Below, in pieces: positions 1 to 61,467 of a stretch of 64,000 bases of DNA (positions are counted from its first letter, which is position 1; every line of letters starts with the position of its first letter). Location of the stretch: assembly GCF_018350175.1 (NCBI RefSeq), contig NC_058368.1, positions 11,284,001-11,348,000 of the forward strand. The letters are read 5' to 3'. Made by a program: the position numbers and the translations under genes. Source of the stretch: Felis catus (lineage: Eukaryota). The notes beneath the pieces are model-generated. The model was not told the DNA's origin. It searched no databases and worked only from the letters and a program-made list of their open reading frames with translations.

Positions 1-469
1 TTCGTGCTCTTTGCGGCTATGTTAGTGAAGAAATAGATTTTCACTGACCCTCATTAAAGTCTTCTGTCGGAAATCATGCCCATTGAAAGATCAATTAGTT
101 ACACTTTTATTTTGTTTTCAAGTGACTACATTTTCCTTCTCGGTCTCTTCACTGGTCTCAATCTGTTTTCTTTTGGAGGTGAAATGCCTAATGTTCACCA
201 ATATTGGCTTCTTCTTGGTCTTATAAATTAAGTTTTTAACAAGCTGATTTCAGCTGTGCTTTCAAATAATATGACTCTAGATTTAAACCCAATCACTTTT
301 CTTTACTAGTTGCATCAACAGATGTTCAGCGTTTCATTTTTCCTTAAGGGTGTATGGTTTCTCACTGACTCTTGGCTTCAAATAGGGATTCTCTGCTATT
401 GGTTTTGTCTGTAAGAATTTAAGCTGTTTAAAGCTGTTTGTACTTGTGGCCAAAAGCTCCTAGTTCCCA

Positions 470-989
470 AAGCAACGGTTTATCACCCACCCCGTGTTAT
501 CTTTGCTCTTACGTTTCTTCAGTCACAGGAACACAACAGCACCGGTGGGTTAGATCTGTGGGTAACGCATGTGTTCGGTAGGCATGGACTGTTTATGACG
601 AGCCATGTGGGTCGGGCTCATGTTCCTGGAGTGCCCTGAGCGGCTTTACTAATCTGTCAGCATAGTATGTTCTCGTGGATAAATATAGACATACGCGCAC
701 TCTGTGAGTTGTAGGTCACTGTCGTACTGTGCAGCTAAAAATTGTCCCATTGGTATGAAGAGTCTGCCCTGGACGGAAGGCCTGTTTTAGTTTGTCTTCT
801 ACTGTAGGTCTTTAGCACCTGACTAAAAATACACCTTGGGCCAAAAATAAGAGAGCCCTACCTTGCCGCTGAGACACTTATGGTGCCAGCGAACAACAGG
901 ACCATGGAGTCCGTCATTATGTTTTTTTGCTTTGGAACATAGTCTGTGTAGCAGTTCCAGACTGTTCGTTTGGGTTCCTTTTCAGGCTC
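470..989 (+). promoter_or_regulatory. Putative alternative FRY promoter / 5'UTR
   Basis: Repeat-free, visibly more CpGs than the flanking intron, reverse CCAAT (ATTGG 749-753), MEF2-like CTAAAAATTG (735) and CTAAAAATAC (823); directly upstream of the candidate exon. Confidence 0.35.
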
Positions 990-1050
990 ATGGAGATTAC
1001 AACAGCTTGTTGGAGACGATCCTGTGTGATCAGCTTCATAAAAGGGCTTG
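990..1050 (+). CDS. FRY: Candidate alternative first coding exon of FRY (MEITTACWRRSCVISFIKGL + 1 nt)
   Basis: ATG with +4 G, 20 codons plus 1 nt, then donor TTG|gtaggt. Phase 1 matches exon 2 (G+CT=Ala). Lies in about 2 kb without recognisable repeats. Confidence 0.65.
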
Positions 1051-2839
1051 GTAGGTATGAAAGGCTGTTAGCATGTATGGCGTGGATCGTTGTTCAGTTA
1101 AGTGCTGAATGTAGGGAAGATTCTCCTAAAGGTTTCAATGGATGGGGCGGAGTTGGGGGGGGGGGCAGTTGCATCTGCATGTGGAGATTTACTTATGATG
1201 TCACTGTTCTGAGGCAGGAATAATGCTTTTTAAGTTTCTGTTTGGGATTGCAGCATTTCAGAGGTGATTTTTTTGTATATAAGTCTATGGAACAACAAGC
1301 TGTGACGTAATGGAATTTTTCTGTGCACCGAAGTTTCACTAAAAGATTTGGTACGATTATCTGTGCTGCAAAATTGCAATCTGAAAAATAGCTTAGTATT
1401 TGGAAGATAGTTAATACCACTGCATTTCATATTACAACAGAGGTAGGATTTAGGCTTGATTTCTTCTAAATATTAATGTTGCAAATACTCAGTTATTTTG
1501 TTTAAAGCATTGAAATAAACCTGAAGCAGTTTTTCCTTTGTTTTTGGCTTAGCCTTCTCCAACAAGAAAACAAATAAAATGTTTTCTTTTATTGTGTATG
1601 AATTAAAAACAGGATAGGATGGGTAAACCAACATTAAATGGGTCCAAATTGCATACCTGTGCTTTTCCTTTATCAGAGTAATAGCCTGGTTATATTAGTT
1701 CTAGCATAACCTTGTAAGAAATATTGTACAAGAGTTCAGAAAAATTAATGAGAGGAAATTCCATGACACAGGGTTCATTACATGCATCTTAGATATCGAC
1801 CGTTTAACTTTCGATTTAATGAAGGTAGGAAAAGGAAATTTGTAGATAGTAAGGACACAACATATTGCTCTAATAAAGGAGAAACATTTTGTTTATTAAT
1901 GATTTGGGAGATTTAATTACTTGTTAATTATTCTTTTGCACTATCTTTAGTGAAACTGTTAGATATTTACATATGATACAATTCGGTTTGTAGGAATAAA
2001 GTCTCTAATAGTCATTAATTTACTCCTTACTTTGTAGTTTATAAAAGCTGACTGTGTATTAGGGAACGTTTTTTTTCCCCCTCTCAAGAGATTTTTTTTT
2101 TTTTGATGTATAACAAGCATACAAGTTAAATGATAAAACTTACAGTTTCATATATTTGGAAAAATGCTATATCACAATAGGACTCATGTGAACTACTCAG
2201 TATTGTTTTTGTTTGATGTCTCTTGTAAATGTAACTGACTCTCACTGTGTTTCCACTGAATGGACCACTCCCATGATCTGGCAGCCATCTTAAGTCCTTT
2301 TTCACTCACTGCCTTTCTTACTCCCAATAAATAATATAACTTAACTTACACGAGGGATCGTTACCAACAAATATTTCTGCGAATTCACAGATTTAAGACC
2401 ATCTTAGATTATGAACTTCTGGTGGGCACATATCAAGAGAATTTTACGTAGTCATTGTACATGTCCGTAGCTATTTAAGAATCTAATGAAACCTAGAATC
2501 TTTTTTTTTATTTAATGAGCCGGCATCTCAATAAATAAGTGCACATGAAGCAGGAATTTAATAAATGTTTTGCTGTTGACAAAATAAAAAACTAGACTAC
2601 AAAGAATTTCACCTATTCAGTTAATTTTTTAACAATTGCTGACTGAGCTTCTACTGTGTATCCCGCCCTGGGTGTTCTTCCTTCACTGTAGATGTCAGAA
2701 ATGTGTCTTGTGTTAATCATATGTATTATGTAATGCGTATACATGACCTCTATATCATACATATGTATATGCATATTATTGTATACCTATGCATATGTAT
2801 ATATTTTACAATAGATTGCATATTAAAACGTATATTGTA

Positions 2840-3125
2840 CCTAGTGCCTTTTTGACCAGGACCCACAGAAAAACAAACAAACAAACACATTTTCTATTAT
2901 GACTCAGAACACACACACACCATACATATCTGTAGACGCAGACAGAGACTGAAAACACAAGTTTTGTGAAATAGTGCTTACTTAACCTCACTCTGCAGGG
3001 TGCCATCACCCGCTGTTTTCTCTTGTAGAGTTTTCTATTCTATTTCATTGAAATCATCCTGGTTAGCACCCAGTAAATAGGTTTCATGATCGAGTAGTGG
3101 GTCACAACCTGTACTTTGATGACCC
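2840..3125. mobile_element. Ancient DNA-transposon MITE remnant (hAT-Charlie-like, family unresolved)
   Basis: gacccacag...aagttttgtgaaatagtgcttac...ttttctattctatttc...gtgggtcacaacc; a related copy lies in reverse orientation near 23270-23440. Confidence 0.5.
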
Positions 3126-3359
3126 TCTCTAAAGATTCCATAAGCCAGGCATTCTCAGTACACCAATAGTCAAGTTCTCTACGGAAATGACAGGCTGTCA
3201 TCCGTGATACTATATTCTACTCCTGGGCAGATTGGTGCTTTATTTGTCAGCATCTTGCTTGGTTGCAGAAATAGCTCTTTCAATAGACTTAATGTGAGTC
3301 TCGGGTTGAATGTTGGGTTTCTAAGCTGGGTATTCAGGACCTTGTATATCTTAATGCTT

Positions 3360-3620
3360 TCTTACTCCTTAATGCAACAAATATTTATTGAGTACTGGGT
3401 ATTGAGCTAGGAGGTGAGGTTACAAAAGGAATAGAACAAATACCTTGCCCTTGTTGCACTTAAGTGGAGTAGGGGAGACAGGTAGAAAACAAGTGTATAA
3501 TGTGTCATCATATATCATCAGGAGGTCAGTGCCCTGCAGGAGAGCAGAGCTGGGTAAAGGGCTAGAGGGAGGTACCATCAAGTGGCTGGCCAGAACAGTC
3601 TCTAATAAAACCAGAAGGAA
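3360..3620 (-). mobile_element. L2 3' end remnant
   Basis: caacaaatatttattgagtact...ccttgccctt...gtaggggagacag, typical of an antisense L2 tail. Confidence 0.6.
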
Positions 3621-4589
3621 GTGAGACACCATCAAGTGCCCTTTTCCCCCACCTACGTGAATTCCTACAATCCCATTGCCCCCATTCTCTTCAGCCTCGA
3701 TGCCTTCTTTGACTGTATCTATCATCAGTTATTTCTAGGCCTCATCTTTAAGGCCACCATCCCAGAGAGTCCCGCCCCGACCCCACAGTCAAGGATACGT
3801 CTCCCCTGCTCCTCTCTTACAACAACCTTCGCAGCACTTCCCATTTTTGTAATTATATTTCTGGACATAATACCTGTCTTCCCTGCATATTACCAGCTCC
3901 CCCCAGCAGCTGACCGAGTGCTCGGAGCCTCCAGTAAATACTTGATGACTGATTAAATGAACCAGTGAAATAAATAAGTTAACGAATGTTCTCCTACCTT
4001 TATGTGCTCATCGGTTGGCTTTTCAACCTGACACTGCCTCATGGCATTGTGCTGCATAGTTGAAAGCACTGCATTCTTCGAATCTCTCAGGTGGTCTTTT
4101 TAAATTTATCTTTGAATTCTGCACCACCCCACAGAATTTTGCAGTGTAACTTATGCATATCAAGGATCAGCAGAACTTTGTCATTTAGTGAATTGATTAA
4201 CTGATCTCACTCAGACACTTTTGAGACCCAAATATTTCTGAAAAGGCTCAAACTATATTATTGTAACATAGGTATGATAAAGGATGCCTGTGTAAATGGC
4301 ATCCTGCCTGCATTCGTCCTGGCCACGTATTGTAAGTGTAAACACCCATGAGACCCACACCACCCATCCCACACATTTAGTTAATGTGGAAGGATGTTGT
4401 TGGGCCTGAAATCTGAGTGAACATTAAAACCTATGTGATCGAACCTGGAATAAATGTGTTGTTTGATTTTTCAATGTATTTTTTAATTGAGTTTAGTTCA
4501 ATGAAATAATGAAGGAATGCTATTATCCCTTCATTATTGCCATTATAAGATATAGGGAACTTTTTACAAATGAGGCTTATCTTTTAAAA

Positions 4590-5120
4590 AAAAGTTTTAT
4601 TATGAAATTTTTCAAACAAACACAAAAGGGGAAAGAATAGTATGATGTATAACATATTGCCATCACATTCAATAGTTAACAAGGTTTTGTCAGATTTGCC
4701 TCAGTTATACCTCCTTTCTCTTTGTTAAAGCATTTCAAATCAAATATAGGTATCATTTCCATGAATGCCATACAGTCAATGTACATTCTAGAAAATATGG
4801 GTACGTTCTTACCTATCCACAGTGCTAACTTCATACGTACCCAAACTGACCGCCATTCTTTGATGTAACCTAATCTCTAGTCCACATTCAAGTTGCTTTG
4901 ATTGTCATTTTCAAAAATGTCTTTTAACAGTTGGTTTGCTTTCATCAAGATTCAGACAAGGTCCACACATTACATTTGGTTGTTCTGTCTCCTAAGTCTT
5001 TAATCATCCTACCCATTTTTATCTCCTCCATTGACTTGTAGAAATTAGTGCAGTTTTCTTGTAAAATGTACCTACCTTTGAATTATTGCTTTGCTTCCTT
5101 AGGGTGACATTTAACTCGTT
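4590..5120 (-). mobile_element. Old L1 (L1MC-like) 3' fragment
   Basis: ttttattatgaaatttttcaaac...caagattcagacaaggtccacacattacatttggttg motifs. Confidence 0.6.
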
Positions 5121-6539
5121 CCTATAGCCCCATGGTGTTTTGTTTTTTGTTTTGTTTTGTTTTGGTGGTTTTGTTTTGTTTTGTTTTTTTTTTGGTAAAT
5201 GGACATTAGCTACAATGTTTTGAAAACTTGATGAACATGGACATAGGGAAAGTTACAGCTCCCTGTCTGCCACACTGCCAAAATCATTTCTGTTGCAGTG
5301 GTAGGAGCCTGAGAGCCCCTCTGTCATTCAGGAGTACACAGCCAACACCATTTTCAGTGGTTGAGTGTCATAACTCTAGCCAATATCTTGCCACTGGTAG
5401 GGAATTTTGAAAAGGCTTCTAGAGTTGATACTCTAAAAATGCTTCTTAAACACTTTAATTATTGTAACGTCACATCAGGAAACCTACAGTGGGTGCATGT
5501 TTTCTTTACTGGGGAATAGTGATAGGACTGGATTTCAGGTTCACTTGTGTAAGATGCACTGTCTTCTATCCTGTTTCAGATTCCATCTTTGTTCTTTTTC
5601 CCATAGTAGCTGCAATGGTCTTTAATTTGTGTTGTCCCTCAAATGGCCCTTCTTGAGCCCACCCTACACAGTAACATCAGCTCAGCATTCTTCCCAGAAA
5701 TCTGCTAACTCCCAGTTGTCCTCCAAATATAGTCTAAACTCACATTGGCTTGCCCTTCAAAACCTTAATTCTAATAATAAGAACTAAACACCTCTATTTT
5801 TTTATAGGACTTGAGAGTTTAAGTTTTTCATATATATGTAGTTGCTCCATTATTTCATTCACACGAAGACTGTATTATGGAATCAGCTGGGTTCCATTCA
5901 ACAAAGATTAAGCAAGCACAGTTGTTTAATTAGGTATGCCAGATACTGTGCTAAATACGTGGAATAAAGACAAGATGTAGTCTTGTTCTTGAGGACTTTA
6001 CAGTCCCTTTGTGAAGAGAAAGTTTGAACATGTGTGCTAAGATAGGGATGTGTGGTAGGAGGGTGAGAGGAGGGAGGAACGAGGAGAGATTCTTAGCAGA
6101 CGCGTGCACCTGCCATGCTATTCCCTGTGCCTGGGTTGCCCCTTTCTCATCTCTACCTATCAGAGTCCTTCAAGACCTGAGTCGAGTGCCATCTATTCCA
6201 TAATGTCTGGCTAATTGATGGCCTGGAAAAGAGATAATGCCTAGTTAGTATAGAGTTTTGTGAAAGACTCTCAGTACATAATTCTTTTTTAATGTTAACA
6301 CAAGTCTTGGGTTTACAACTAGGAATAAAGACAGGCTTCCTTGTGTGTCCACCCATAATAGAGGAAGTTGCTAGTGGTCAGGACTAGTCTCACTTGCTAG
6401 TCTCAGGAAAGGGAGTGGAGCCAGAGAATAAGGGGAAAGGCTAGGATCATTCGTAAAGCTTTCCCACATAGAGAGGATAGATGATAGAATCTCACTAATT
6501 CATAGTAATTCAAGGGAAAGCAAATGTTAATCTTTAAAA

Positions 6540-7020
6540 AAAATTTTGAGTATAGCTGACATACAATGTTACATCAGTTGCAGGTGTACAAGAGTGATTC
6601 AACAAGCTTATATGTTATGCTCACCACAAATGTAGCTCCCATCTGTCACCATACAAGCGATTACAGTACCATTGACTATATTCCCTATACTGTGCCTTTC
6701 ATCTCTGTGATGTATTCACTCCATAACCAGAAGACTGTACCTCCTGCTCCCCTTTACCCATTCTGACCATCCCTGTACCCTTCTGTCAACCATCAGTTTG
6801 TTCTCTGTGTTAATAGGTTTGATTCTGCTTGTTTTTTTTAGATTCCACATGTGAGTGAAATCCTATGGTGTTTGTCTTTCTCAGTCTGACTTATTTCACT
6901 TAACATCATACCCTCCAGGTGCATCCATGTTGTCACAAATGCCACGAAACATGCACCGTAGGTATATGTAAACATACATCCATACCACATCTTCCTTATC
7001 CATTCATCTGTTGATGGGTA
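6540..7020 (-). mobile_element. L1 3'UTR fragment
   Basis: gagtatagctgacatacaatg...gattccacatgtgagtgaaatc...gacttatttcacttaacat...cattcatctgttgatgg. Confidence 0.8.
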
Positions 7021-7384
7021 AGTGTTAATTCTTTGAACTGTGCAAGTATTGAATAAGTGATGTTTTATTAATTTTGACTATATATTTTATATAGTCATAG
7101 AATGAATACTGGTGCTGGAAAGGACAACCTGGCCTGGATTCTTTAAAAATGACAGATAAGGAAACTGAAGCCCAGTTGGTACAAGTTCATCCCCCAAGTT
7201 CATATGGAGCCATACTAGGACCTTTGACTCCCCATTTGGTGTTCTTCCTATGTTTTGCCTCCAGAGCATTAACTTAGTTAAAGTTAATGAAGCATATCTA
7301 TAGGCAAATGGAATGAAAAACAATGTTATTAACTGGATTAATTGGTCCTCTTTGTTTTCCCATTTATTTATATCAGAGACATCA

Positions 7385-7560
7385 AACTATACTCCTGGGC
7401 CAACAGCATTGGCATAATCCGGTTATGCCTAGTTAGGATTAGTTAGAACTGGTTATCACTGGTTAGAAATGCAGCTTATTGAGCCCCATCCCAGACCTGC
7501 TGAATCAGGTGGGGTGCAGCCTTCCAGGCAAATCTGACATGCCGAGATTCTGATCACCAC
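7385..7560. mobile_element. MER5-like hAT MITE
   Basis: gttagaaatgcag...ccccatcccagacctgctgaatcag. Confidence 0.6.
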
Positions 7561-8747
7561 CGATTCACATTGTAAATCAGCATAGCCTTTTGAAAGTTGC
7601 CATTAAAAACAAAATACAAAGCCTTGTCCAGTTTATCCCAAAGTTTGACCTAATGCATGGCAAATTAATGAGATTTGTGCTGCACAAAATAAGCCAGAAG
7701 AGGAAGAAAATGGAGAAGAAAAGAAAAGGAGAGAAGGAAGAGAGGCTAGTCAGTGGAGGGCACATGAATGAGAGCAGTTTGTCTGTTTTGCTGAGAAGAA
7801 GGAAGTTGAAATTCAGGATTATCCTGCCTCTAGAAGGTTATTCGATCTCCTTTTGGTGAGAAAGGACCTTGAAATGTCAATGTAACCTCATCTTCCTTTG
7901 CTCACAGATCTTGGCAGACATTTGTTCAGGCTCTGATGACAGTACCTACTTTGAAAATTGGGGAAGGTCCATGTAATTGCATCTTAGCAGATGACAGACA
8001 TTTAGAAAGGCAATCATTGAAGTGTTACTGTCATTTCTGTAAGATAAAATACTGTAAGTCAAAGGAAGAGAGAAAAGAAAACAGGGCAGTGACTTGATGC
8101 CTACTTTCTCTTTATTGAACTCCTTCACTCTCTCCCGGGTATCCAGTCTCAAAGACAAAAATGGTGTGGAGAGGTTGCAGACTGAACAGAAGTTCCCTTG
8201 CTCCTTGTTAGAATAACAACCAGTTAAAGTTGATATCATCAGTATATCTAGGAAGGAATGGTCTCTAGATCTTTCTAATGTATGTCAGCAATCAGATTTC
8301 GTATATTTTATGGGTCTTCAATTCTTGGCTCTGTTTTATACTCTTAGCCTTCCCAAAGCCCTTATACTAGCTAAAAGATGCATTCGAGTTTAAGGGGACA
8401 GAGAACTTGGCAGGATGGACCTCTGTGGCTGGCACATTCTCCAAATCACAACATCTGTATTTTATTTCTTCATCCCCTGAAGTCCCCAAACTGGCTCATA
8501 CCAGGGCCAAACTGTGGGTAAGGGAACTTATTTTATTCAGTCTTCCTCATAAACAACTGGTTTGTTTTTAAATTCAGGATCATACAAGAAGCTCAGAAGA
8601 TATACATGGGATCGGATCCTGGGTCAACCACTCTGTGACCTTAGGCAAGACACTTAACCTCTCTTCACCTACATGGTCTTATCTGTAAAAGTGAGAGGGG
8701 TTGGCCTTCCAAGATTATTTTTGAGTATTAAAGACATTATTTATCAT

Positions 8748-8957
8748 GGGGCACCTGGGTGGCTCAGTCGGTTGAGCATCCGACTTCGTCTCGGGTCATG
8801 ATCTCACGGTTTGTGGGTTTGAGCCCCGTGTCAGGCTCTGTGCTGAACTCTTGCTCAGAGCCTGGAGTCTGCTTCGGATTCTGTGTCTCCTTCTCTCTCT
8901 GCCCCTCCCCCTGCTCACGCTCTGTCTCACTCTGTCTCTCAAAAATAAATAAATGTA
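8748..8957 (+). mobile_element. CAN-SINE (SINEC_Fc family), host of a nested SINE
   Basis: ggggcacctgggtggctcagtcgg head, (CT)-rich body, aaaaataaataaa tail. Confidence 0.95.
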
Positions 8958-9191
8958 GGGGCGCCTGGGTGGCTCGGTCGGTTAAGCATCCGACTTCAGC
9001 TCAGGTCATGATCTCACGGTCCGTGAGTTCGAGCCCCGCGTTGGGCTCTGTGCTGACGGCTCAGAGCCTGGAGCCTGTTTCCGATTCTGTGTCTCCTTCT
9101 CTCTCTGCCCCTCCCCTGTTCATGCTCTGTCTCTCTCTGTCTCAAAAATAAAAATAAAACGTTAAAAAAAATTTTTTTTAAATAAATAAAT
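8958..9191 (+). mobile_element. CAN-SINE inserted in the A-tail of the preceding SINE
   Basis: Full head to tail; TSD aaataaataaatgta at 8943-8957 and 9192-9206. Confidence 0.95.
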
Positions 9192-10719
9192 AAATAAATA
9201 AATGTAAAAACAAAATTTATATATATAAAAAAAAGAGACAGTAACTATCTTAGAGCCATCTTGTGGACCCTGAAACTCGAAGGCACACAATTTGAGGACT
9301 AGAGAATGGAGAGAGTGAAGTAGCCTGAGAAAGGAAGAATGCATTTCATCAATGAAAACACAAGGAACATTTCACATTACCAGAATTTTACAGAAATTAG
9401 TTAAGAGGGACTTACCATGCCATTGAATATATTTTTCTTCCAAGGCAAAAAGCATTTCTGAGTATTTTTGCCTTGTACTCTCTTCTTGACCAGTTTTGAA
9501 ACATATAAAATTAAGAGTTATCCATCTCTTTGTTAAGAAATGTTTTTCTGTTGCTCAAACTAATTGTTTCTTTAAATCTCAACATTTTCCGTTTCTTAAG
9601 AATACCCTTCAGAGGAAAATAATTCTTCCTATCACATTTGCAGGATTTTTTCTTCTTTTTATCCTAATGTATTTTGCATGACTTTTAAAGTTTCTGGTCA
9701 CTTTGAGTATTTGCAGTACCTTTTAAAATACCATTTCTTAAGCACCCTTATAAATGCATTAGTGGACAATTTATTATAGTTCTATACACAGTGTGACATG
9801 TTCTCACAGTAGCTGCGTCATTCTGGGTTTGTTATGTTTTATGAAATGTTCCTGTAATGCCAGTAAACAGAAAAAGTCTTACAGGAAAAGAGGGATTGGG
9901 GCGGGGGGGGGGGGGAACATCAAGTCTTCAAGAAGGATCCCAGCACTTGGGTACTGACAGGATTTGCCCTTAGAACCCACAAAACGAATGAGGTGCTGAG
10001 AACTGGCAGAAAGAATAACATATATCCAACTGTGAACAAAGAAATCTAATCAATCTACTCCTGTGTTAAAAGATAGGTTACAGTGATCTGTAGGAAATAG
10101 AGTTGTTTTAACAGACCTCCATTTCTAAGAGGAGTAGCGACTTTGAACAGTGACCGCCATATAATCTCAGGGGCACTTCAAAAGAAAAGGAAACCATTTC
10201 TTCTTTATTTCAAACGCTCAGAGTCTGATTCCCATTCTGGGAACATCAGAGCAAGCACTGAATATTGTCAACAACTAACTCTGCGCTTGTCTGTCTTTAT
10301 AAGTGGGGAAAAAAGCCGGCAAGGATGGGCCTCTTTCCTGAGTTATATACTTTGTGAGGGGAGGTGAAAAGGCTGCGTGTCCGATGGGCATTTTGATTCA
10401 TGCTCTTCACAGCCTGGTTAAAATTCTCATTCCCAACCAGAACAGATGCAAAAATGGGCAGGTCAAAGGGATGGGTCAGAGAAGCAGATCCTGCCCAACC
10501 CAAGTGTGTTTGGATTTCCTTAGACGCCAAGAATGCACATGGCTCTCGTTCTCCACGGCAGTTCCAAACCCAACATTTGAACATTCCTCTATTCCCTCAC
10601 TGTGCTTAATTTCCCTTCATTTTTGAACGTACTGCGATCTGACTTGCAGTTTGACTTGCGGTGTATATGTGCGTGTGTGTGTACAAAACATTGCGGATTG
10701 TATGGTCCTGCTTCAGCAA

Positions 10720-10850
10720 ACCGTAAACTCTGTGAGAGGGGGAACTATGTGTTGACTGCTACCTTCCCAGGGCCTAGAACAGTGCTGGAAACCCAGGTAC
10801 TCGTTAAAGAAATATTGGTCGAAATGAATGAGTGAACGAATGAATGACAG
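10720..10850 (+). mobile_element. L2 3' end
   Basis: cctagaacagtgctgg...caggtactc...aaatatt...gaatgagtgaacgaatgaatg. Confidence 0.7.
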
Positions 10851-12067
10851 CCTTAACAAGTGAGGGGATCAACTTCTCTGAAAATCTGACTGAGGAAACC
10901 AGTTGTTGTCCTGTAACCTGTGGGGCCACTTACAGCCTCTGGGACATTCATGTGAGGAAACTCATTATAACATTAACTTTCCTTTCAGTGACATAATAAA
11001 AACGTAGCCAAACTATGAGTTGTGGGGTATTTGTATTGGTGTCGCAGTTTGGAAGTTAATAATTCCTGGAAATGTTGGCAACTCAGGGAAAGTTTACTGA
11101 AGACCTTAGCCAGCTAAGAGCGGCCAGCCTAAAAATCATGTTATTAGTCAATGACACTGGGGAAAAAAATAGTCACGTTCAGGAGATCATCGTTTGCAGT
11201 TAGAAATAGATCTAATAAAGAGCTAATGAATGGGCCACAAAAGCCTCAAACAGATTTCTTCCAGACTAAGGAATGGGCCCTGCTTACTAGAAGAAATAGA
11301 GACTCAGGGAACAGGGGGAAGGAGCTCCTGAAGCCATCCTGCAAACCCAAATAGAAACCGAATTTGGGCTAAAATAATAGCATCGGCAAAACCCGTTTAA
11401 GATACAAGAAGGCAATGGAGAAAAATTAGAACGTGTCAAATCCAAGAGGAAAATGTCAATGAGAAAATCTAAACAGAAAGCAAATTCCCAAAAGTTTCAG
11501 TAAGGAAGGTCCTGGTTAATAACTGAACGTGATGCCCTTGTGGCCCGCGCCTCCGTTCCCCGCCCACGGGAACCCAGGTCGGAGTGACTTTCTAGGGACG
11601 TTGAGCTGATGTGTGCAAATAGGGAGAGGAGCTGAAGAAGAGAAGGAGAGATGGTTAAAGCAGATGGAGAGGAAGCTCAAAAAGTTATCACATGCAGGAA
11701 AATTTAAATGAGAGAAAGCGTTTAATCTAGCAAATTAAATCGTTCCTTCAACATGTCTTTTTAGGTGGGGAAGATAACAGTGACCTGTCAGGACCCTTTC
11801 ATCATCAGGGATCCCTATTTCCAGAGGCCCCACCATGGAGGCAGCTGGATGGCACGGTCTCCGCGAAGGTGGGAGGGAATCCTGACCTCCGGCGACTTGC
11901 TTGCCTGGCTGGACAGAAAGTAGTGGCAACACCGTGGTGGGAAGAGTCGATTCAGACAGTAATGCCTGCTTCGGCAGAGCCAGAAAGGGGCCAAAGTGTG
12001 ACTATTACTGCATTGGTGGTTTGTCTGTTGCAATAAAAAATAAGTTCCAGTTAAAAATTAGACTTAT

Positions 12068-12191
12068 GGGGGCACCTGGGTGGGTCAGTCAGTTGAGCGA
12101 CCTATTCTTGGTTTTGGCTCAGGTCCTGATCTCATGGTTATGAGATCAGGGCTCCGAGTAGGGCTTACTCTGGGCATGGATCCTGCTTAAG

Positions 12192-12243
<52 letters not shown>

Positions 12244-12305
12244 CCCCCCCTCTCCCTCTCTCTGTCTCTGTCTCTCTCTCTCTCTCTTTTTCTCAAAAAA
12301 AAAAA
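12068..12305 (+). mobile_element. CAN-SINE with expanded (CT)n
   Basis: SINE head, (CT)n about 12194-12240, degenerate TSD aaaaat(t/c)agac(t/c)tatg. Confidence 0.93.
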
Positions 12306-14454
12306 AAATCAGACCTATGAAGAAAGAGATTAATTCTTCAGAGTGAAATTCTTAAGGTTGTTATTTACCCTTTATACCCCAAACCTTTTTTTTAGGTTTA
12401 CCTTTTGGAAATTTACATCACTCTTCTTCCCACCTTCTCAAATACAGGACTACATATCAAACTTATTTTAGCTTTTCCATAGGACTTAAGGTCATCATCA
12501 TGAATGTTAGTTGTGACAACATGCTAGATGGATCTGTCACTGCCCCCACACTTGTCAGAGTGTCTGATTCTGTGGCCTTGTGCCAAATGGCTTCATACAA
12601 CTGCATTTTTAAGTTACAGAGTCTTTTTAGAGTAGTGCCTTCCCCCCCCCTTCTTTTGCTATTAGAGTTTCTACCCAAGATGTTGCATCTTTCCTTGTAA
12701 TTTTCTCTTTCCAGACTACTGTGAACTTCAAAACTGGACAGTGGATCTTAATTATGAGTAGATTAAAAGCAAGTACACAGGGAAAAATCTAATGATGTTT
12801 TCTAGTGGTAATGTTCTCATAGTTAGACTAGTAGAGACTTTGTGACTCAATTTTGACTACCAGGGAATATGTATTGTCACCAAATAACTGAGCTCCTGAA
12901 AGGTGCTACGTCATATGTTTACTTTTGAAAATTATTCCGACAAAAGGCTAGGATTTGTTATGAATCAATTATGGTAGGATACAGAGAGCTATTAAAACCG
13001 AGTGGATCTTGTTCAAGGACATTTACCCCATTAAATTTTACTGCATCTCTATATGCCCAGCTGATCTGTTTAAAACAGGAATGATGGGCGCCCTCCCCTT
13101 GAATCTCTTTCAGCTCTGACACAGGGCTCTGCTGGGCTAGGATAGTTCCTCTCCAAGGCTGTGTAGACTCTTGCACTCACAAGGATGTCTGGCTCTGAGG
13201 TACAGGTGACTAACTTTTTTTATGACAGCAGTGAATTGGTACCTTGGCCGTTTAAATGGAATATTCGTCAGAGACACATCCTGGTATCTGGAGTTCAGCT
13301 ATCTGGTTCAAGACGCAACATTTCAGAAGACTGCCAGAGGTCACTCTTGAAATTTCTCTCACTGGGGTCGGGACTTTTAGGCCCCAGAGTCTTTCAATTA
13401 TGGATCTGATCTTGCAATTACATCAAGCTGATTAGTGCTATCTTCTAGAAATGGATTAAATCCTGTGGAAAACTAAAGGTAATGAAAGATTGTCCTTCAC
13501 TTAGACTTTCTCAGTTTCTATTCCAATTTCCAGCCCTATGGCACAATGCCCTGGAAACATGAGGAAAATACCTCGTGGAGACCTTAGTCCCTTTATTAAG
13601 TTGGTCTTGGGATCCCAGGCTTCCCATTTCCAAAAGGCACCTGCACTGAGGAGAAGCAGGTAAAGGCAGAGGAGTGACCAGAACTTCATTTGCATCACCT
13701 GATTTTGAATATGTCCGATTAGAATCAATCATGCCTTTTAGGAAGCAGCTTCAAGTGCTATTTAATGACTCTTCCTTGCAAATACTGCACCCTCTCCCTT
13801 TAATGACTCTAACTACTGATTCGTCTCTGAGAGCTCCCTCCCTATGAGTCAAGATGTACAGAAATAAAGTAAGGTGTCATTTCAGGTAGTTACTTAAGGA
13901 GATCTACTGAGTATTATCTGTATAAAGAACTCTGTATTAGACTAGGAGGCTACAGTCTTATTCGGGAACTTTCAGAGGATAACACGGAGAAGAGTATATG
14001 GTTCAGTTATGGGGCCAAGCCTTGGCAAAACTGTGTGACCAACTGATAATTACTTCTCTTGTCAGCTATCTTCTGAGTCTTTCTTAGGTAATGTAGGATG
14101 TAAAAGGCCAAAGAACATGAGTTAAGTGTCTAAATCTGGTAATACAGACTTACCAGGGAAGAGTGGGCAGGTGGAGGTAGGTTTTGTGGAGATCGATCTA
14201 CACGTGGCTCTGAAAGGACAAGAGAGTTAGATGATCAGAGAAGAGTGGAAAGGAGCAGGAAGAGAGAAAGGAGGAAGGCATAGGGAAGAAGAGTGTGCTC
14301 CTGGGCCAGCCAGGGTATCAGCCTGGCTTGGGGACAGGGTGGAAGCAAACTGCTGAAGGCTATCAAAACCAGACCATGTGTGAAGGCTGGATGGTAATTA
14401 AGAGCCAGTGAAAATCTTGTGGGGGGGGGGAGTTATAATTAAAGCCATGGTGAA

Positions 14455-14676
14455 GGGGCACCTGGGTGACTCAGTTGGTTAAGCGTCTAACTCTTGGTTT
14501 CTGCTCAGGCCATGATCTCATGGTTTCGTGAGTTCAAGCCCCGTGTTGGGCTCTGCACTGATGGTGTGGAGCCTGCTTGGGACGCTCTCTCTCTCTCCCT
14601 CCCTCTCTCTCTAACCCTCCTCTGCTCACGTAGTCTCTGTCTTTCTCAAAATAAATAAATAAACTGAAAAAAAATG
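14455..14676 (+). mobile_element. CAN-SINE
   Basis: TSD taaagccatggt on both sides. Confidence 0.95.
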
Positions 14677-15273
14677 TAAAGCCATGGTAAAGAAAAATTT
14701 GGTATATGAAAGGAATGACATAAAGTCAGCACAGAGGCTGCTATAGTAATTGAGCCATAAGTTTCCAAAGGCCTGGACCAGGATGGGGCTCATAAGAATG
14801 GAGAAGAAATGGAATAATATACATAAAACATGTTTTAGTTTTATAACTTGAGAAGCCATAAAGTGGGGTGGTAGTTGAGATATGGGAAGATCCTCCAGAT
14901 GTAAGGGACCCCTCAACTGTGTGGCAGGTCGAATGGATTAGAGAGAAAGCATAGAGAAAGAGGAGATAGACCCTAACACAAGGACGTGTTTGTCATCCAA
15001 TAAAATAAATACAATTTTTCATTGGCTTCCTCAGAATTTTACTTGGGATAGAAAGAAGGGAAGAGAAGACTTGAGTTTATTTTCAGTTCTGAGAAAAGTA
15101 TTCAGCTTTCCTGGAGAACTTTTTCCCTCTTTCATTATCAGTGACAGGCCACCCTTCTCTTACTATCCAAACCAGCATCCAAATGAAGTCCCCTTTTTTC
15201 TTCACCTTTTCTTTAATCTCCGTATTCAGCCACCCTGAGCTGGAGAGCCTTCCTTTAAAAAGTCTACTTTATT

Positions 15274-15462
15274 GGGGCGCCTGGGTGGCTCAGTTGGTTA
15301 AGCGTCCAACTCTTGATTTTGGCTCAGGTCATGACCTCACAGTTCGTGAGATCGAGCCCCACGTTGGGCTCTATGCTGACGGTGTGGAGTCTGCTTGGGA
15401 TTTTCTCTCTCTCTCTCTCTGCTCCTCCCCTGTTCTCTCTTTCTCAAGATAAATAAACTTTC
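15274..15462 (+). mobile_element. CAN-SINE
   Basis: Head ggggcgcctgggtggctcag; degenerate TSD aaaagt(c)tactttat. Confidence 0.95.
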
Positions 15463-16168
15463 AAAAGTTACTTTATCATCATCCTGTCCTAAGCCACTTA
15501 ACTCAACATTTCTTTCATTGACTCTCATGACCAACCGTGTCACAAGTACTTAGGTGGAAGGAGATAGCGCATGTTAGAGTTTGACGTGCCAAAGTACAGT
15601 AAAAAGTAGAGAGACGTGAAATTTTCATTTACGAATAAAAATTGCTTTCTCTGTCAAATTAAAATACTTGTCTGACTCTGTTGCATTCTAAAAGGAGGCC
15701 ACTCACTAGGGACTCTCACAGCTGCCTCTGTTCAAGATCTAATCCAAGCAGGGAACCTGCACATTTTAGAAGAGGTGAGGAGAGGTAGCCCAACTTGAGC
15801 CAAATGGTGGCGTGAGTGAAAAGTCAAATGCACATCTCGGATGGCATAGATGGGGCACTGCCTGAGCCTTTTATCTTTCAAGAGGGGCATCTCTTTCAGG
15901 AGCAAGAGCCAAATGGGCTTCTGAAACTTCTGGGTCATGGAAACTTCTGGAAGTCACCACCCCAGAAGTCTTTTCCTTTTTTAGAATGAAGCACGGAGAG
16001 CTCCTGGCCATTAGGAAAACCAGGACAGGAAATCACTTTTTTTCCATATATATTTTCTTAGTCCATTTCCCTGAAACATAAAAAACAAGCAAAAAACATC
16101 TTAAATGTTGTAGGATTCATAATTCAACATCAACAATTATGTTGTATGCTTACAACATAATTCACCTA

Positions 16169-16393
16169 GGGGCATCTGGGTGGCTCAGTGGGTTGGGCAT
16201 CCAACTTCAGCTCAGGTCATGATCTCATGGTTCATGGGTTCGAGCCCCACATTGGGCTCTGTGTTGACAGCTCAGAGCCTGGAACCTGCTTTGGATTCTG
16301 TGTCTCCCTCTCTCTCTGCTCCCCCCACCCACCCCGCCACTTGCACTCTGTCTCTCTCTCTCAAAAGTAAACATTAAAAAAATTTTAAAAAGA
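16169..16393 (+). mobile_element. CAN-SINE
   Basis: Head, body and tail present; degenerate TSD aacata(a/g)tt(c/t)accta. Confidence 0.95.
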
Positions 16394-16502
16394 AACATAG
16401 TTTACCTAAAACAATGTAATAACCAGAAATACTTTGAGATTATCAAACATGGCATACTGCAAACTTAATGTAATCAAAATAGTTACATTCTGACACCATC
16501 CC

Positions 16503-16748
16503 TTTTTTTTTAATTAATTAATTTATTTTTGAGAGAGAGAGAGAGAGAGAGACAGAGAGAGAGGCAGAGAGAGAGAGCGCACACAAGTTGGGGAAGGGCA
16601 GAGAGAGAGGGAGACCCAGAATCTGAAGCAGGCTCCAGGCTCTGAGCTGTCCGCACAGAGCCAGATGCGGGGCTTGAACCCACCAACCGTGAGATCGTGA
16701 CCTGAGCTGAAATTAGACACTTAACCAACTGAGACACTCAAGTGCCCC
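16503..16748 (-). mobile_element. CAN-SINE, antisense, about 150 nt upstream of exon 2
   Basis: poly-T, (GA)n, ...tcaagtgcccc; TSD ctgacaccat(c/t)cc. Confidence 0.95.
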
Positions 16749-16878
16749 TGACACCATTCCTAAAGAACACGGCCAGGTTATGACATCAAATGCAGCATTC
16801 TTCATATGATTCATATCCGTACATTCATGGCTTAATACAGCCAATCTGGATATTTAGGATGTTATTTTCAGCCAGTAA

Positions 16879-17142
<264 letters not shown>

Positions 17143-40199: not shown

Positions 40200-40253
40200 G
40201 AAAAGCCATTGACAAAATCTCTACAACGTGGAGAAGATACCCAGTTTGACCAA
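40200..40253 (+). CDS. FRY: FRY coding exon (exon 3 equivalent), 54 nt, phase 0 to 0
   Basis: Acceptor ctttttctttctag|GAA, donor CAA|gtatgt. Encodes EKPLTKSLQRGEDTQFDQ, continuing in frame from exon 2. Confidence 0.96.
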
Positions 40254-40886
40254 GTATGTAATAAGTTACATGTATATATGTTGTATTCTGGCTTTTATTA
40301 ATTTCCAAATGCACAAAAGGCAAGGGCTGGATGCTCACTGTTGATGTATTGATTAATTCCCTCAAAGAGGATACAGGGATATGATCTTAGGAGCTGTGTC
40401 CTTCAGCTTTTACAAGTAGACATTCAATAGATGTCTATTGATTGGAATTGGAAAAAATGGGAATATGCTGGAATAATATGAATAGGCCCCCAACTGCCTA
40501 TGGTTTTCTAAAGCTTTATATACCAGAATTGAAGAAACTAAGAAAATATAAAAAAAACTTCTATTCCAAAACTTAGTTAGATGCCTCTGAATAAATGATC
40601 ATCACTCTGTAGGGATCAGATCTCCGCATTAGGGCTTATCATGTTTTCATCCAGCATTTTCCTTTGAATACCTACTATTTGCTTGATACAGCCCTGCAAA
40701 ATACAGAGTCTAGGACAAGTTTTAGCTCTTTTGGAATTCACAATGACGTGAAAGAGAAATCACCTTAACAATAATTATAAGACAAGTATAGTGACTTAGA
40801 TTCCAATGGAAAAGGTGATACAGGAACAAAAACAATTTAAGACAGAATAAATACAAAGAGAGTCTTTTGAAAATAGATTGGATAGA

Positions 40887-56561: not shown

Positions 56562-56717
<156 letters not shown>

Positions 56718-60842: not shown

Positions 60843-61049
<207 letters not shown>

Positions 61050-61168: not shown

Positions 61169-61276
<108 letters not shown>

Positions 61277-61347: not shown

Positions 61348-61467
<120 letters not shown>

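What the first reader, a model, noticed from the sequence alone, without database searches (positions are those of the whole stretch)
986..1056. Candidate alternative first coding exon giving FRY a Cys/basic N-terminus (MEITTACWRRSCVISFIKGL)
Seen: ATG at 990, 20 open codons plus one G, then a good donor G|gtaggt at 1051. This is exactly the phase (1) exon 2 requires, giving [28 protein letters not shown]. The first ~2 kb has no recognisable transposons, unlike the rest of the intron. An acceptor-like ttccttttcag ends at 985, so this could instead be a second exon behind a non-coding leader. Known from recall: the canonical FRY N-terminus is a different 23-aa peptide. Inference: promoter choice swaps the N-terminus, and the C-W-R-R-S-C motif with hydrophobic flanks resembles N-terminal S-palmitoylation signals, which could target this NDR-kinase/Hippo scaffold to membranes. 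The exon may already exist among predicted isoforms; I cannot check that.
Basis: partly seen in the sequence, partly recalled or inferred. Interest (0 to 1): 0.75.

Follow-up and report, generated by a model that had tools for sequence, protein, structure and literature searches.

The report
Known alternative first coding exon of FRY
This is a real, anciently conserved alternative 5' coding exon of the FRY scaffold gene that is already present in public gene annotations, while the idea that it is a fatty-acid membrane anchor remains untested and is weakened by a fish version that lacks both cysteines.

Summary
The sequence is as described: ATG at 990, 20 codons plus G (1050), donor GTAGGT at 1051, acceptor-like ttccttttcag ending at 985, and phase 1 as required by the shared exon at 16901. 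The pattern alone is not beyond chance (7 such configurations in this intron; shuffles 2.05 +/- 1.7).

Conservation and splicing make it real. The same 20-residue peptide opens annotated partial FRY isoforms of chimpanzee and orangutan (20/20). It occurs with one change in pangolin, woodchuck, a singing mouse and two unnamed records. A goby protein begins MEVPTKWSRASVISFIKGL joined to the same next exon. Two unnamed cDNA-like contigs join its last 8 codons to exon 2 and later exons.

In this genome it is the most proximal of three alternative phase-1 5' coding exons.

Both cysteines are kept in 8 of 8 mammalian sequences but are Lys and Ser in the goby. AlphaFold places both alternative tips in a low-confidence ~50-residue tail. 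No RNA from this species could be examined. Verdict: already annotated; the palmitoylation idea is unsupported.

The parts
975..985 (+). acceptor-like polypyrimidine tract plus AG (ttccttttcag)
   Evidence: It is the only site in 1-1000 with at least 14 of 18 pyrimidines before YAG|R. Use as an acceptor is inferred, not shown.
986..1050 (+). alternative 5' coding exon of FRY, 65 nt if the acceptor at 985 is used (5' end not determined)
   Evidence: Peptide conserved in chimpanzee, orangutan, pangolin, woodchuck, singing mouse, two unnamed records and a goby. Similarity to read-through ORFs drops from 19/20 inside the exon to 1-2/16 beyond the donor codons.
990..1050 (+). coding part: ATG, 20 codons (MEITTACWRRSCVISFIKGL) and first base (G) of the split Ala codon; phase 1
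   Evidence: tblastn of P0013 on the window: residues 1-21 at 990-1052.
1051..1056 (+). splice donor GTAGGT
   Evidence: The residues G-R-(Y/F)-E that the donor encodes when read through are kept in P0001 and P0026; similarity then ends.
1027..1029 (+). TGA reached if the exon is entered at 986 from the canonical exon (phase 1)
   Evidence: SWRLQQLVGDDPV*. The 65-nt length is not a multiple of 3.
16901..17100 (+). shared FRY exon 2 ((A/T)[66 protein letters not shown])
   Evidence: P0005 matches 100% over 67 residues at 16900-17100.

Best explanation
Window 986-1050 is the most proximal of three mutually exclusive 5' coding exons of FRY. Transcripts that carry it do not carry the canonical ATG exon. 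They start translation at ATG 990 and splice from 1050 to 16901. The resulting FRY protein begins MEITTACWRRSCVISFIKGL-A instead of the canonical 23 residues plus Thr. The exon is old: it is present in a teleost. Its conserved core is Met-Glu, Trp, Arg, Ser and above all VISFIKGL. The swapped segment is the tip of a roughly 50-residue N-terminal tail that precedes the folded helical Furry domain. The likely effect (inferred) is therefore a different short linear motif or N-terminal modification on an otherwise identical scaffold, coupled to a different transcription start. Shown: the sequence, frame and phase; the conservation; and the splice junction in other species' transcripts and annotations. 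Inferred: use in this species; whether it has its own promoter or an upstream leader exon; and any effect on localisation or partners.
For: Sequence, frame and phase. Database search with the 40-residue read-through query found 4 proteins among 5 candidates (71-2000 aa), and all 4 carry the peptide. The 22-70 aa search found 3 of 3 candidates. In P0005's cluster, 15 of 16 members were listed. Of these, 2 start with the full peptide 20/20 identical (PNI60442.1 Pan troglodytes 'FRY isoform 9, partial'; PNJ48560.1 Pongo abelii 'FRY isoform 5, partial'). Two unnamed JGI contigs start at [16 protein letters not shown]. Five are canonical, 5 carry the distal MAVDDS exon and 1 is other. P0005 (479 aa on a 4300-nt contig) and P0017 (224 aa on an 1878-nt contig) run through exons that lie up to 60 kb apart in this window, so they must come from spliced RNA. 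Goby protein UniRef100_A0AAV2JCU1 starts MEVPTKWSRASVISFIKGL|ASPV, and its alignment to P0013 begins at residue 1. Conservation is bounded by the exon: 19/20 inside, 3/4 over the donor codons, then 1/16 and 2/16; the upstream in-frame translation is unlike that of Scotinomys. Own-genome layout: distal exon at C1:11172541 (68 codons + G|GTAGGA), canonical exon at C1:11254519 (23 codons + A|GTGAGT), this exon at C1:11284990; all are phase 1. AlphaFold2: P0013 residues 1-50 and P0015 residues 1-53 have pLDDT below 50, while the rest of each model reaches mean pLDDT 82.7 and 84.4 overall.
Against: The ape entries probably derive from projection of the human annotation (my recollection; method in PMC6028123, passages read), so they are not independent of each other. 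The woodchuck, pangolin, singing-mouse and goby entries are gene models of unknown evidence. All cross-species evidence is at the protein level, so synonymous versus non-synonymous change could not be counted, and constraint on the DNA for a non-coding reason is not formally excluded. The bare pattern is expected by chance. Ten ATGs lie in 500-989, and the -3 position of ATG 990 is C, so the 5' end and translational efficiency are open. Full-length (~3000 aa) isoforms could not be searched: the tool stops at 2000 aa.
Confidence: 0.88

Rival explanations
1. One reading: in mammals the alternative tip is an N-terminal S-palmitoylation signal (Cys7, Cys12 flanked by Trp-Arg-Arg and a hydrophobic stretch) that tethers this FRY isoform, and with it NDR kinase activation, to membranes.
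For: Both Cys are present in 8 of 8 mammalian sequences seen: window, P0013, P0012, P0002, P0003, P0004, P0001, P0026. The peptide has net charge +2. It lies in a tail that AlphaFold does not pack against the domain. S-acylated cysteines of soluble proteins are often surrounded by basic or hydrophobic residues, as in the GAP-43 N-terminal motif (PMC5364179, passages).
Against: The goby orthologue has Lys and Ser at the two positions while keeping VISFIKGL, so the feature conserved between fish and mammals is not the cysteines. There is no Gly2, prenyl box or transmembrane segment to give first membrane contact (sequence). The helical hydrophobic moment is low (0.10-0.41 in 11-residue windows). 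No paper found links FRY and palmitoylation (listings only, apart from one paper's passages).
Confidence: 0.13
2. The 65-nt exon acts mainly as a frame-shifting 'poison' cassette. When spliced in between the canonical first exon and exon 2 it brings a stop codon, yielding a decay-prone or truncated product and so tuning FRY output. The ATG-990 reading frame would be secondary.
For: There is a strong acceptor 4 nt before the ATG, and it is the only one of that quality in 1-1000. 65 nt is not a multiple of 3. Entry in phase 1 gives SWRLQQLVGDDPV then stop at 1027-1029. One gene model (Scotinomys, P0004) does link the canonical exon to this region.
Against: The start Met-Glu and the ATG-990 frame are kept from goby to mammals, and annotated coding sequences start there. 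The two spliced contigs read in that frame into exon 2. P0004 reads through upstream sequence that is not conserved here and looks like an ab initio model. The two roles are not mutually exclusive.
Confidence: 0.12
3. Not an exon at all: a chance ORF with a chance donor inside a conserved non-coding element, picked up by gene predictors.
For: The pattern alone is expected by chance. Unspliced contigs colinear with the window exist (P0024, P0025).
Against: Spliced contigs P0005 and P0017 exist. The peptide occurs in models from four mammalian orders and a teleost. Conservation stops just past the donor.
Confidence: 0.03

Closest known systems
Annotated partial FRY isoforms PNI60442.1 (Pan troglodytes, 'FRY isoform 9, partial') and PNJ48560.1 (Pongo abelii, 'FRY isoform 5, partial')
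   Same: The first 20 residues are identical to the window's peptide and have the same junction to ASPVGNGY.
   Different: Other species. The entries are incomplete at the 3' end. They probably project a human transcript (recalled, not checked). No function is described.
Canonical FRY first coding exon ([23 protein letters not shown]), here at G000:C1:11254519
   Same: A short 5' coding exon, phase 1, spliced to the same exon 2. It also lies in the low-confidence N-terminal tail.
   Different: The sequence is unrelated apart from a weak EISIK / VISFIK likeness. It lies 30.5 kb upstream, has no cysteines, and its last base A gives Thr instead of Ala.
Distal FRY 5' coding exon (MAVDDSNLYS...RPSIFP), here at G000:C1:11172541
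   Same: The third alternative, also phase 1 with G|GTAGG. It is seen spliced to exon 2 in seven unnamed Logan and ENA records.
   Different: It is 68 codons long, lies 112 kb upstream, and has CpG-rich sequence in front of it (o/e 0.68-0.82, against 0.5-0.65 in front of this exon).
N-terminal S-acylation motifs of soluble proteins such as GAP-43 (as described in PMC5364179)
   Same: Cysteines near the N-terminus sit among basic and hydrophobic residues.
   Different: The cysteines are at positions 7 and 12 and are not conserved in fish. There is no experimental evidence and no consensus against which to test.
Frame-shifting regulatory ('poison') cassette exons (general knowledge, recalled)
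   Same: Its length is not a multiple of three, it gives an early stop if included after the canonical exon, and it is highly conserved.
   Different: It has its own conserved ATG and frame, and it is annotated as a coding start.

Membership tests
Alternative 5' coding exon of FRY | ATG, open frame and donor in the phase needed by the shared exon | tested here: met
   ATG 990, 20 codons + G, GT at 1051; exon 2 at 16901 needs phase 1.
Alternative 5' coding exon of FRY | Peptide, start codon and exon boundary conserved in orthologues | tested here: met
   Mammals 19-20/20. In the BLASTP alignment of P0013 with the goby P0062 I count 13 of the first 20 positions identical, with VISFIKGL invariant. 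Similarity ends after the donor codons.
Alternative 5' coding exon of FRY | Junction to exon 2 seen in RNA | tested here: inconclusive
   Seen in two unnamed cDNA-like contigs of another mammal (P0005, P0017).
Alternative 5' coding exon of FRY | Own transcription start (true first exon) rather than an internal exon behind a leader | not testable with these tools
   Acceptor at 985 and 10 upstream ATGs in 500-989. CpG o/e is only 0.5-0.65. No CAGE or read data.
N-terminal S-palmitoylation signal | Cysteine(s) near the N-terminus among basic or hydrophobic residues | tested here: met
   Cys7 and Cys12 flank W-R-R-S and are followed by VISFI. The feature is as described in PMC5364179. It is permissive, not diagnostic.
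N-terminal S-palmitoylation signal | Cysteines conserved wherever the exon is conserved | tested here: not met
   8 of 8 mammalian sequences keep both, but the goby has Lys and Ser.
N-terminal S-palmitoylation signal | Thioester-linked acyl group and Cys-dependent membrane binding shown | not testable with these tools
   Needs acyl-biotin exchange and localisation experiments.
Poison (frame-shifting) cassette exon | Inclusion between constitutive exons brings a premature stop | tested here: met
   65 nt; stop at 1027-1029 in the canonical phase.
Poison (frame-shifting) cassette exon | Inclusion after the canonical first exon observed in RNA | not tested
   No reads could be laid. Only one gene model (P0004) links the two, and it reads through unconserved sequence.

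The most novel reading that the evidence does not exclude
Mammals added two cysteines to an ancient alternative N-terminal tip of FRY. This would create an isoform that is reversibly S-acylated and membrane-tethered, so that the choice among three 5' exons decides where the FRY-NDR scaffold acts: membrane versus microtubule or cytosol.
Probability: 0.12. Interest if true: 0.55.

Novelty: already known. Interest (0 to 1): 0.25.

Why it matters
FRY is the scaffold that activates NDR1/2 kinases and restrains YAP (review PMC8699626, passages read). An isoform with a different N-terminal tip could be placed or regulated differently, and nothing on FRY's alternative 5' exons turned up in the searched literature. 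The exon itself, however, is already in public annotations, so the window adds no new gene feature. The exon goes back to bony fish. Its conserved core is VISFIKGL rather than the cysteines. It is one of three same-phase 5' exons on a probably flexible tail.

Tried and rejected
No junction, start or depth data exist for this species.

2. Sequencing-run search: 22 of 24 listed rows hold part of window:700-1200. Two of them are on record as RNA (share 0.89). One organism-B run has share 0.09. None was laid, and the shares include both flanks of the exon, so I draw no conclusion about expression.

3. Metagenome scan for P0005's own contig: 14 loci, none of them that contig and none with this exon.

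5. A 20-residue query was too short.

6. Rfam on 1-3000: 4 matches, all far below gathering scores.

7. Earlier findings of this scan: nothing for this genome or sequence, and the word search returned only unrelated cases.

8. Papers: the first eight residues of the peptide (MEITTACW), searched as a string, gave 0 papers. 'furry, FRY, alternative promoter' gave 1 unrelated paper. 'furry, FRY, palmitoyl' gave 9 papers, none about FRY acylation judging by title or abstract. 'furry, FRY, NDR1, isoform, N-terminal' gave 11, none on FRY 5' exons judging by title or abstract.

9. PDB: no relative of the FRY N-terminal region.

10. N-termini of the form ..[10 protein letters not shown] in P0008, P0009, P0112, P0131 and P0164 were rejected as further alternative exons. 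They are read-ins from the intron's polypyrimidine tract (compare).

11. A paralogous copy of the exon in FRYL: none was found at E <= 10.

Full report
**Observation.**
- ATG lies at 990-992, followed by 20 sense codons reading MEITTACWRRSCVISFIKGL and then a lone G at 1050.
- GTAGGT lies at 1051-1056, and a pyrimidine-rich acceptor-like ttccttttcag at 975-985.
- The next FRY exon starts at 16901 after tttttcag. It needs phase 1, so G+CT gives Ala and the frame continues SPVGNGY. The exon ends at 17100 before GTGAGT.
- The nearest in-frame upstream stop is TGA 870-872, with no in-frame ATG in between.
- Read through the donor, the ORF runs 77 codons.

As a bare pattern this is not remarkable. 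An ATG with at least 20 open codons and a phase-1 G|GTRNG donor occurs 7 times (from 4 start codons in 3 places) in 1-16900. Block-wise shuffles give 2.05 +/- 1.7, and 80% of them have at least one. Window 1-2400 has a single first-look candidate in its own genome, against 11,907 for 2401-9000. CpG o/e is only modestly raised (0.5-0.65 in 201-1000, against 0.31 for the window), so there is no CpG island.

**What it is.** A database search with the 40-residue read-through translation (71-2000 aa proteins) gave 4 hits among 5 candidates, and all 4 carry the peptide.
- Marmota monax: MEITTACWRRSCVISLIKGL joined to ASPVGNGY.
- Smutsia gigantea: MEITAACWRRSCVISFIKGL.
- Scotinomys teguina: the peptide at the end of a partial model.
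- One unnamed read-through ORF.

The 22-70 aa search gave 3 of 3 candidates. Two are unspliced ORFs matching the window's read-through translation, starting at its GTG codon, and differing at or after the poly-G run. The third is a further rodent-like read-through ORF.

A search with the woodchuck protein's first 40 residues found P0005. It is an unnamed 479-residue protein on a 4300-nt contig that begins [16 protein letters not shown]. Its 90% cluster has 16 members, of which 15 were listed.
- PNI60442.1 ('FRY isoform 9, partial', Pan troglodytes) and PNJ48560.1 ('FRY isoform 5, partial', Pongo abelii) both start with a peptide 20/20 identical to the window's.
- A second unnamed contig protein (P0017, 224 aa on 1878 nt) starts like P0005.
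- Five members are canonical, five carry a third N-terminus, and one (a bird model) is different.

P0005 maps to window exons at 16900-17100 (100%), 40200-40268, 56562-56699, 60885-60992, 61193-61276 and 61387-61467. A contig of a few kb that spans 60 kb of genome must derive from spliced RNA. P0005 and P0017 start at the GTG codon 1026-1028, which follows a GGAG at 1012-1015. I infer that a prokaryote-type gene caller chose that start, as it also did in P0024 and P0025, so the contigs probably extend further 5'.

Finally, an exhaustive profile-free search of 1.84 billion representatives with P0013 returned 1296 hits at E <= 0.001, of which 150 were listed. Only one of the listed hits aligns from the query's start: P0062. 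It is UniRef100_A0AAV2JCU1 of the goby Knipowitschia caucasica and begins MEVPTKWSRASVISFIKGL|ASPV. The exon therefore predates the split of ray-finned fishes and tetrapods.

Conservation is bounded by the exon. Against the two rodent-like read-through ORFs, identity is 19/20 inside the exon, 3/4 over the codons made by the donor, then 1/16 and 2/16. The in-frame translation upstream of the ATG is unlike that in the Scotinomys model.

**Gene layout in this genome.** The window is G000:C1:11284001-11348000.
- The canonical first coding exon ([23 protein letters not shown], then A|GTGAGT) starts at C1:11254519. That is 29.5 kb before the window and 30.5 kb before this exon.
- A third 5' coding exon (MAVDDSNLYS...RPSIFP, 68 codons, then G|GTAGGA) lies at C1:11172541. 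It has CpG-rich sequence in front of it, with o/e 0.68-0.82. It is seen spliced to exon 2 in seven unnamed Logan and ENA records.
- All three exons end in phase 1 and feed the same exon 2. This is the architecture expected for alternative promoters or first exons.

**First exon or second exon?** This stays open. For an internal 65-nt exon: the acceptor at 985 is the only strong one in 1-1000, and ten ATGs lie in 500-989, so a long unspliced leader would be burdened with upstream starts. Entry from the canonical exon would shift the frame to SWRLQQLVGDDPV-stop. The exon therefore cannot be a coding cassette. With the canonical exon it would act as a poison exon, which I keep as a rival that may coexist. 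Annotated coding sequences that start at this Met imply transcripts lacking the canonical ATG exon (inference).

**The peptide.** AlphaFold2 gave two models, each built with a ~46-sequence alignment.
- The chimpanzee isoform (P0013) has mean pLDDT 82.7, but residues 1-50 are below 50.
- The canonical form (Myotis, P0015) has mean pLDDT 84.4, with residues 1-53 below 50 and a low-confidence helix drawn at 9-21.

The confident helical-repeat fold begins near [10 protein letters not shown]. Both alternative exons therefore encode the tip of a probably flexible tail, not part of the fold, although low confidence is not proof of disorder. No solved structure covers this region. The peptide has net charge +2 and a low helical hydrophobic moment.

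**The palmitoylation idea.** S-acylation has no consensus. Acylated cysteines of soluble proteins are merely often flanked by basic or hydrophobic residues, as in GAP-43 (PMC5364179, passages read). The peptide fits that loose description, and both cysteines are kept in 8 of 8 mammalian sequences. In the goby, however, they are Lys and Ser while VISFIKGL, Met-Glu, Trp, Arg and Ser are kept. What selection has held since fish is therefore not the cysteine pair. A mammal-specific gain of acylation is not excluded; I put it at about 0.12.

**RNA in this species.** Twenty-two of 24 listed runs hold part of window:700-1200. Two of them are on record as RNA. They say nothing about splicing.

**Comparison and novelty.** The exon is already in public annotation of chimpanzee, orangutan, woodchuck, pangolin and a goby. 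The ape entries probably project a human transcript. That link is my recollection; the projection method is described in PMC6028123 (passages read). No paper in the searched library mentions the peptide's first eight residues, FRY alternative promoters or FRY palmitoylation (listings and abstracts only, plus passages of PMC8699626). As a gene feature it is already known. Its function is unstudied.

**Verdict.** This is a real, ancient, already annotated alternative 5' coding exon (confidence 0.88). The membrane-anchor reading is unsupported and is weakened by the fish orthologue. Interest is low to moderate.

Noticed in passing
G000:C1:11172541-11172745 (window coordinate about -111,459); locus L029: A third alternative 5' coding exon of FRY (MAVDDSNLYS...RPSIFP, 68 codons + G|GTAGGA, phase 1) with CpG-rich sequence upstream (o/e 0.68-0.82). 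Seven unnamed Logan and ENA records show it spliced to exon 2 (P0006, P0007, P0018-P0021, P0023).
   Followed up: partly
outside the window, near G000:C1:11376305-11376418 (locus L035/L036 area): Four database proteins with three different N-termini end ...SLNPEV: P0005, P0015 (Myotis myotis), P0019 and P0022. This suggests a conserved short FRY isoform of about 480-540 residues that ends by reading into an intron and comprises little more than the N-terminal Furry domain.
   Followed up: no
window 16880-16900 (intron end before exon 2): Several database 'N-termini' of the form ..[10 protein letters not shown] (P0008 Equus asinus, P0009 Balaenoptera physalus, P0112, P0131, P0164) are translations of the intron's pyrimidine tract, i.e. 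gene-model artefacts and not further alternative exons.
   Followed up: yes
window 1026-1038 versus locus L016 (canonical exon): A 13-base stretch matching at 11 of 13 positions is shared by the two exons (GTGATCAGCTTCA here, GAGATCAGTATCA in the canonical exon; VISF versus EISI). By my own rough post hoc estimate this has a chance of about 0.03. It may be coincidence or a trace of an old exon duplication.
   Followed up: no
window 700-1200 and 1153-1165: Unspliced contigs colinear with the window exist in ENA and Logan records (P0024, 1029 nt; P0025, 2150 nt). They differ from the window in the length of the poly-G run. Many small runs of 'organism A' hold 85-96% of the sampled words of 700-1200, including both exon flanks. 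Whether this reflects pre-mRNA, an unspliced transcript or DNA is unknown.
   Followed up: no
window 880-942: A short upstream ORF lies here (ATG 880; a second in-frame ATG at 904 in an ACCATGG context; stop at 940-942). It ends 48 nt before ATG 990 and would matter only if transcription starts upstream of it and the acceptor at 985 is not used.
   Followed up: no
G000:C11:164114896-164184383: The paralogue (FRYL-like) locus matches the FRY query exon by exon, but it shows no counterpart of the alternative exon at E <= 10.
   Followed up: partly
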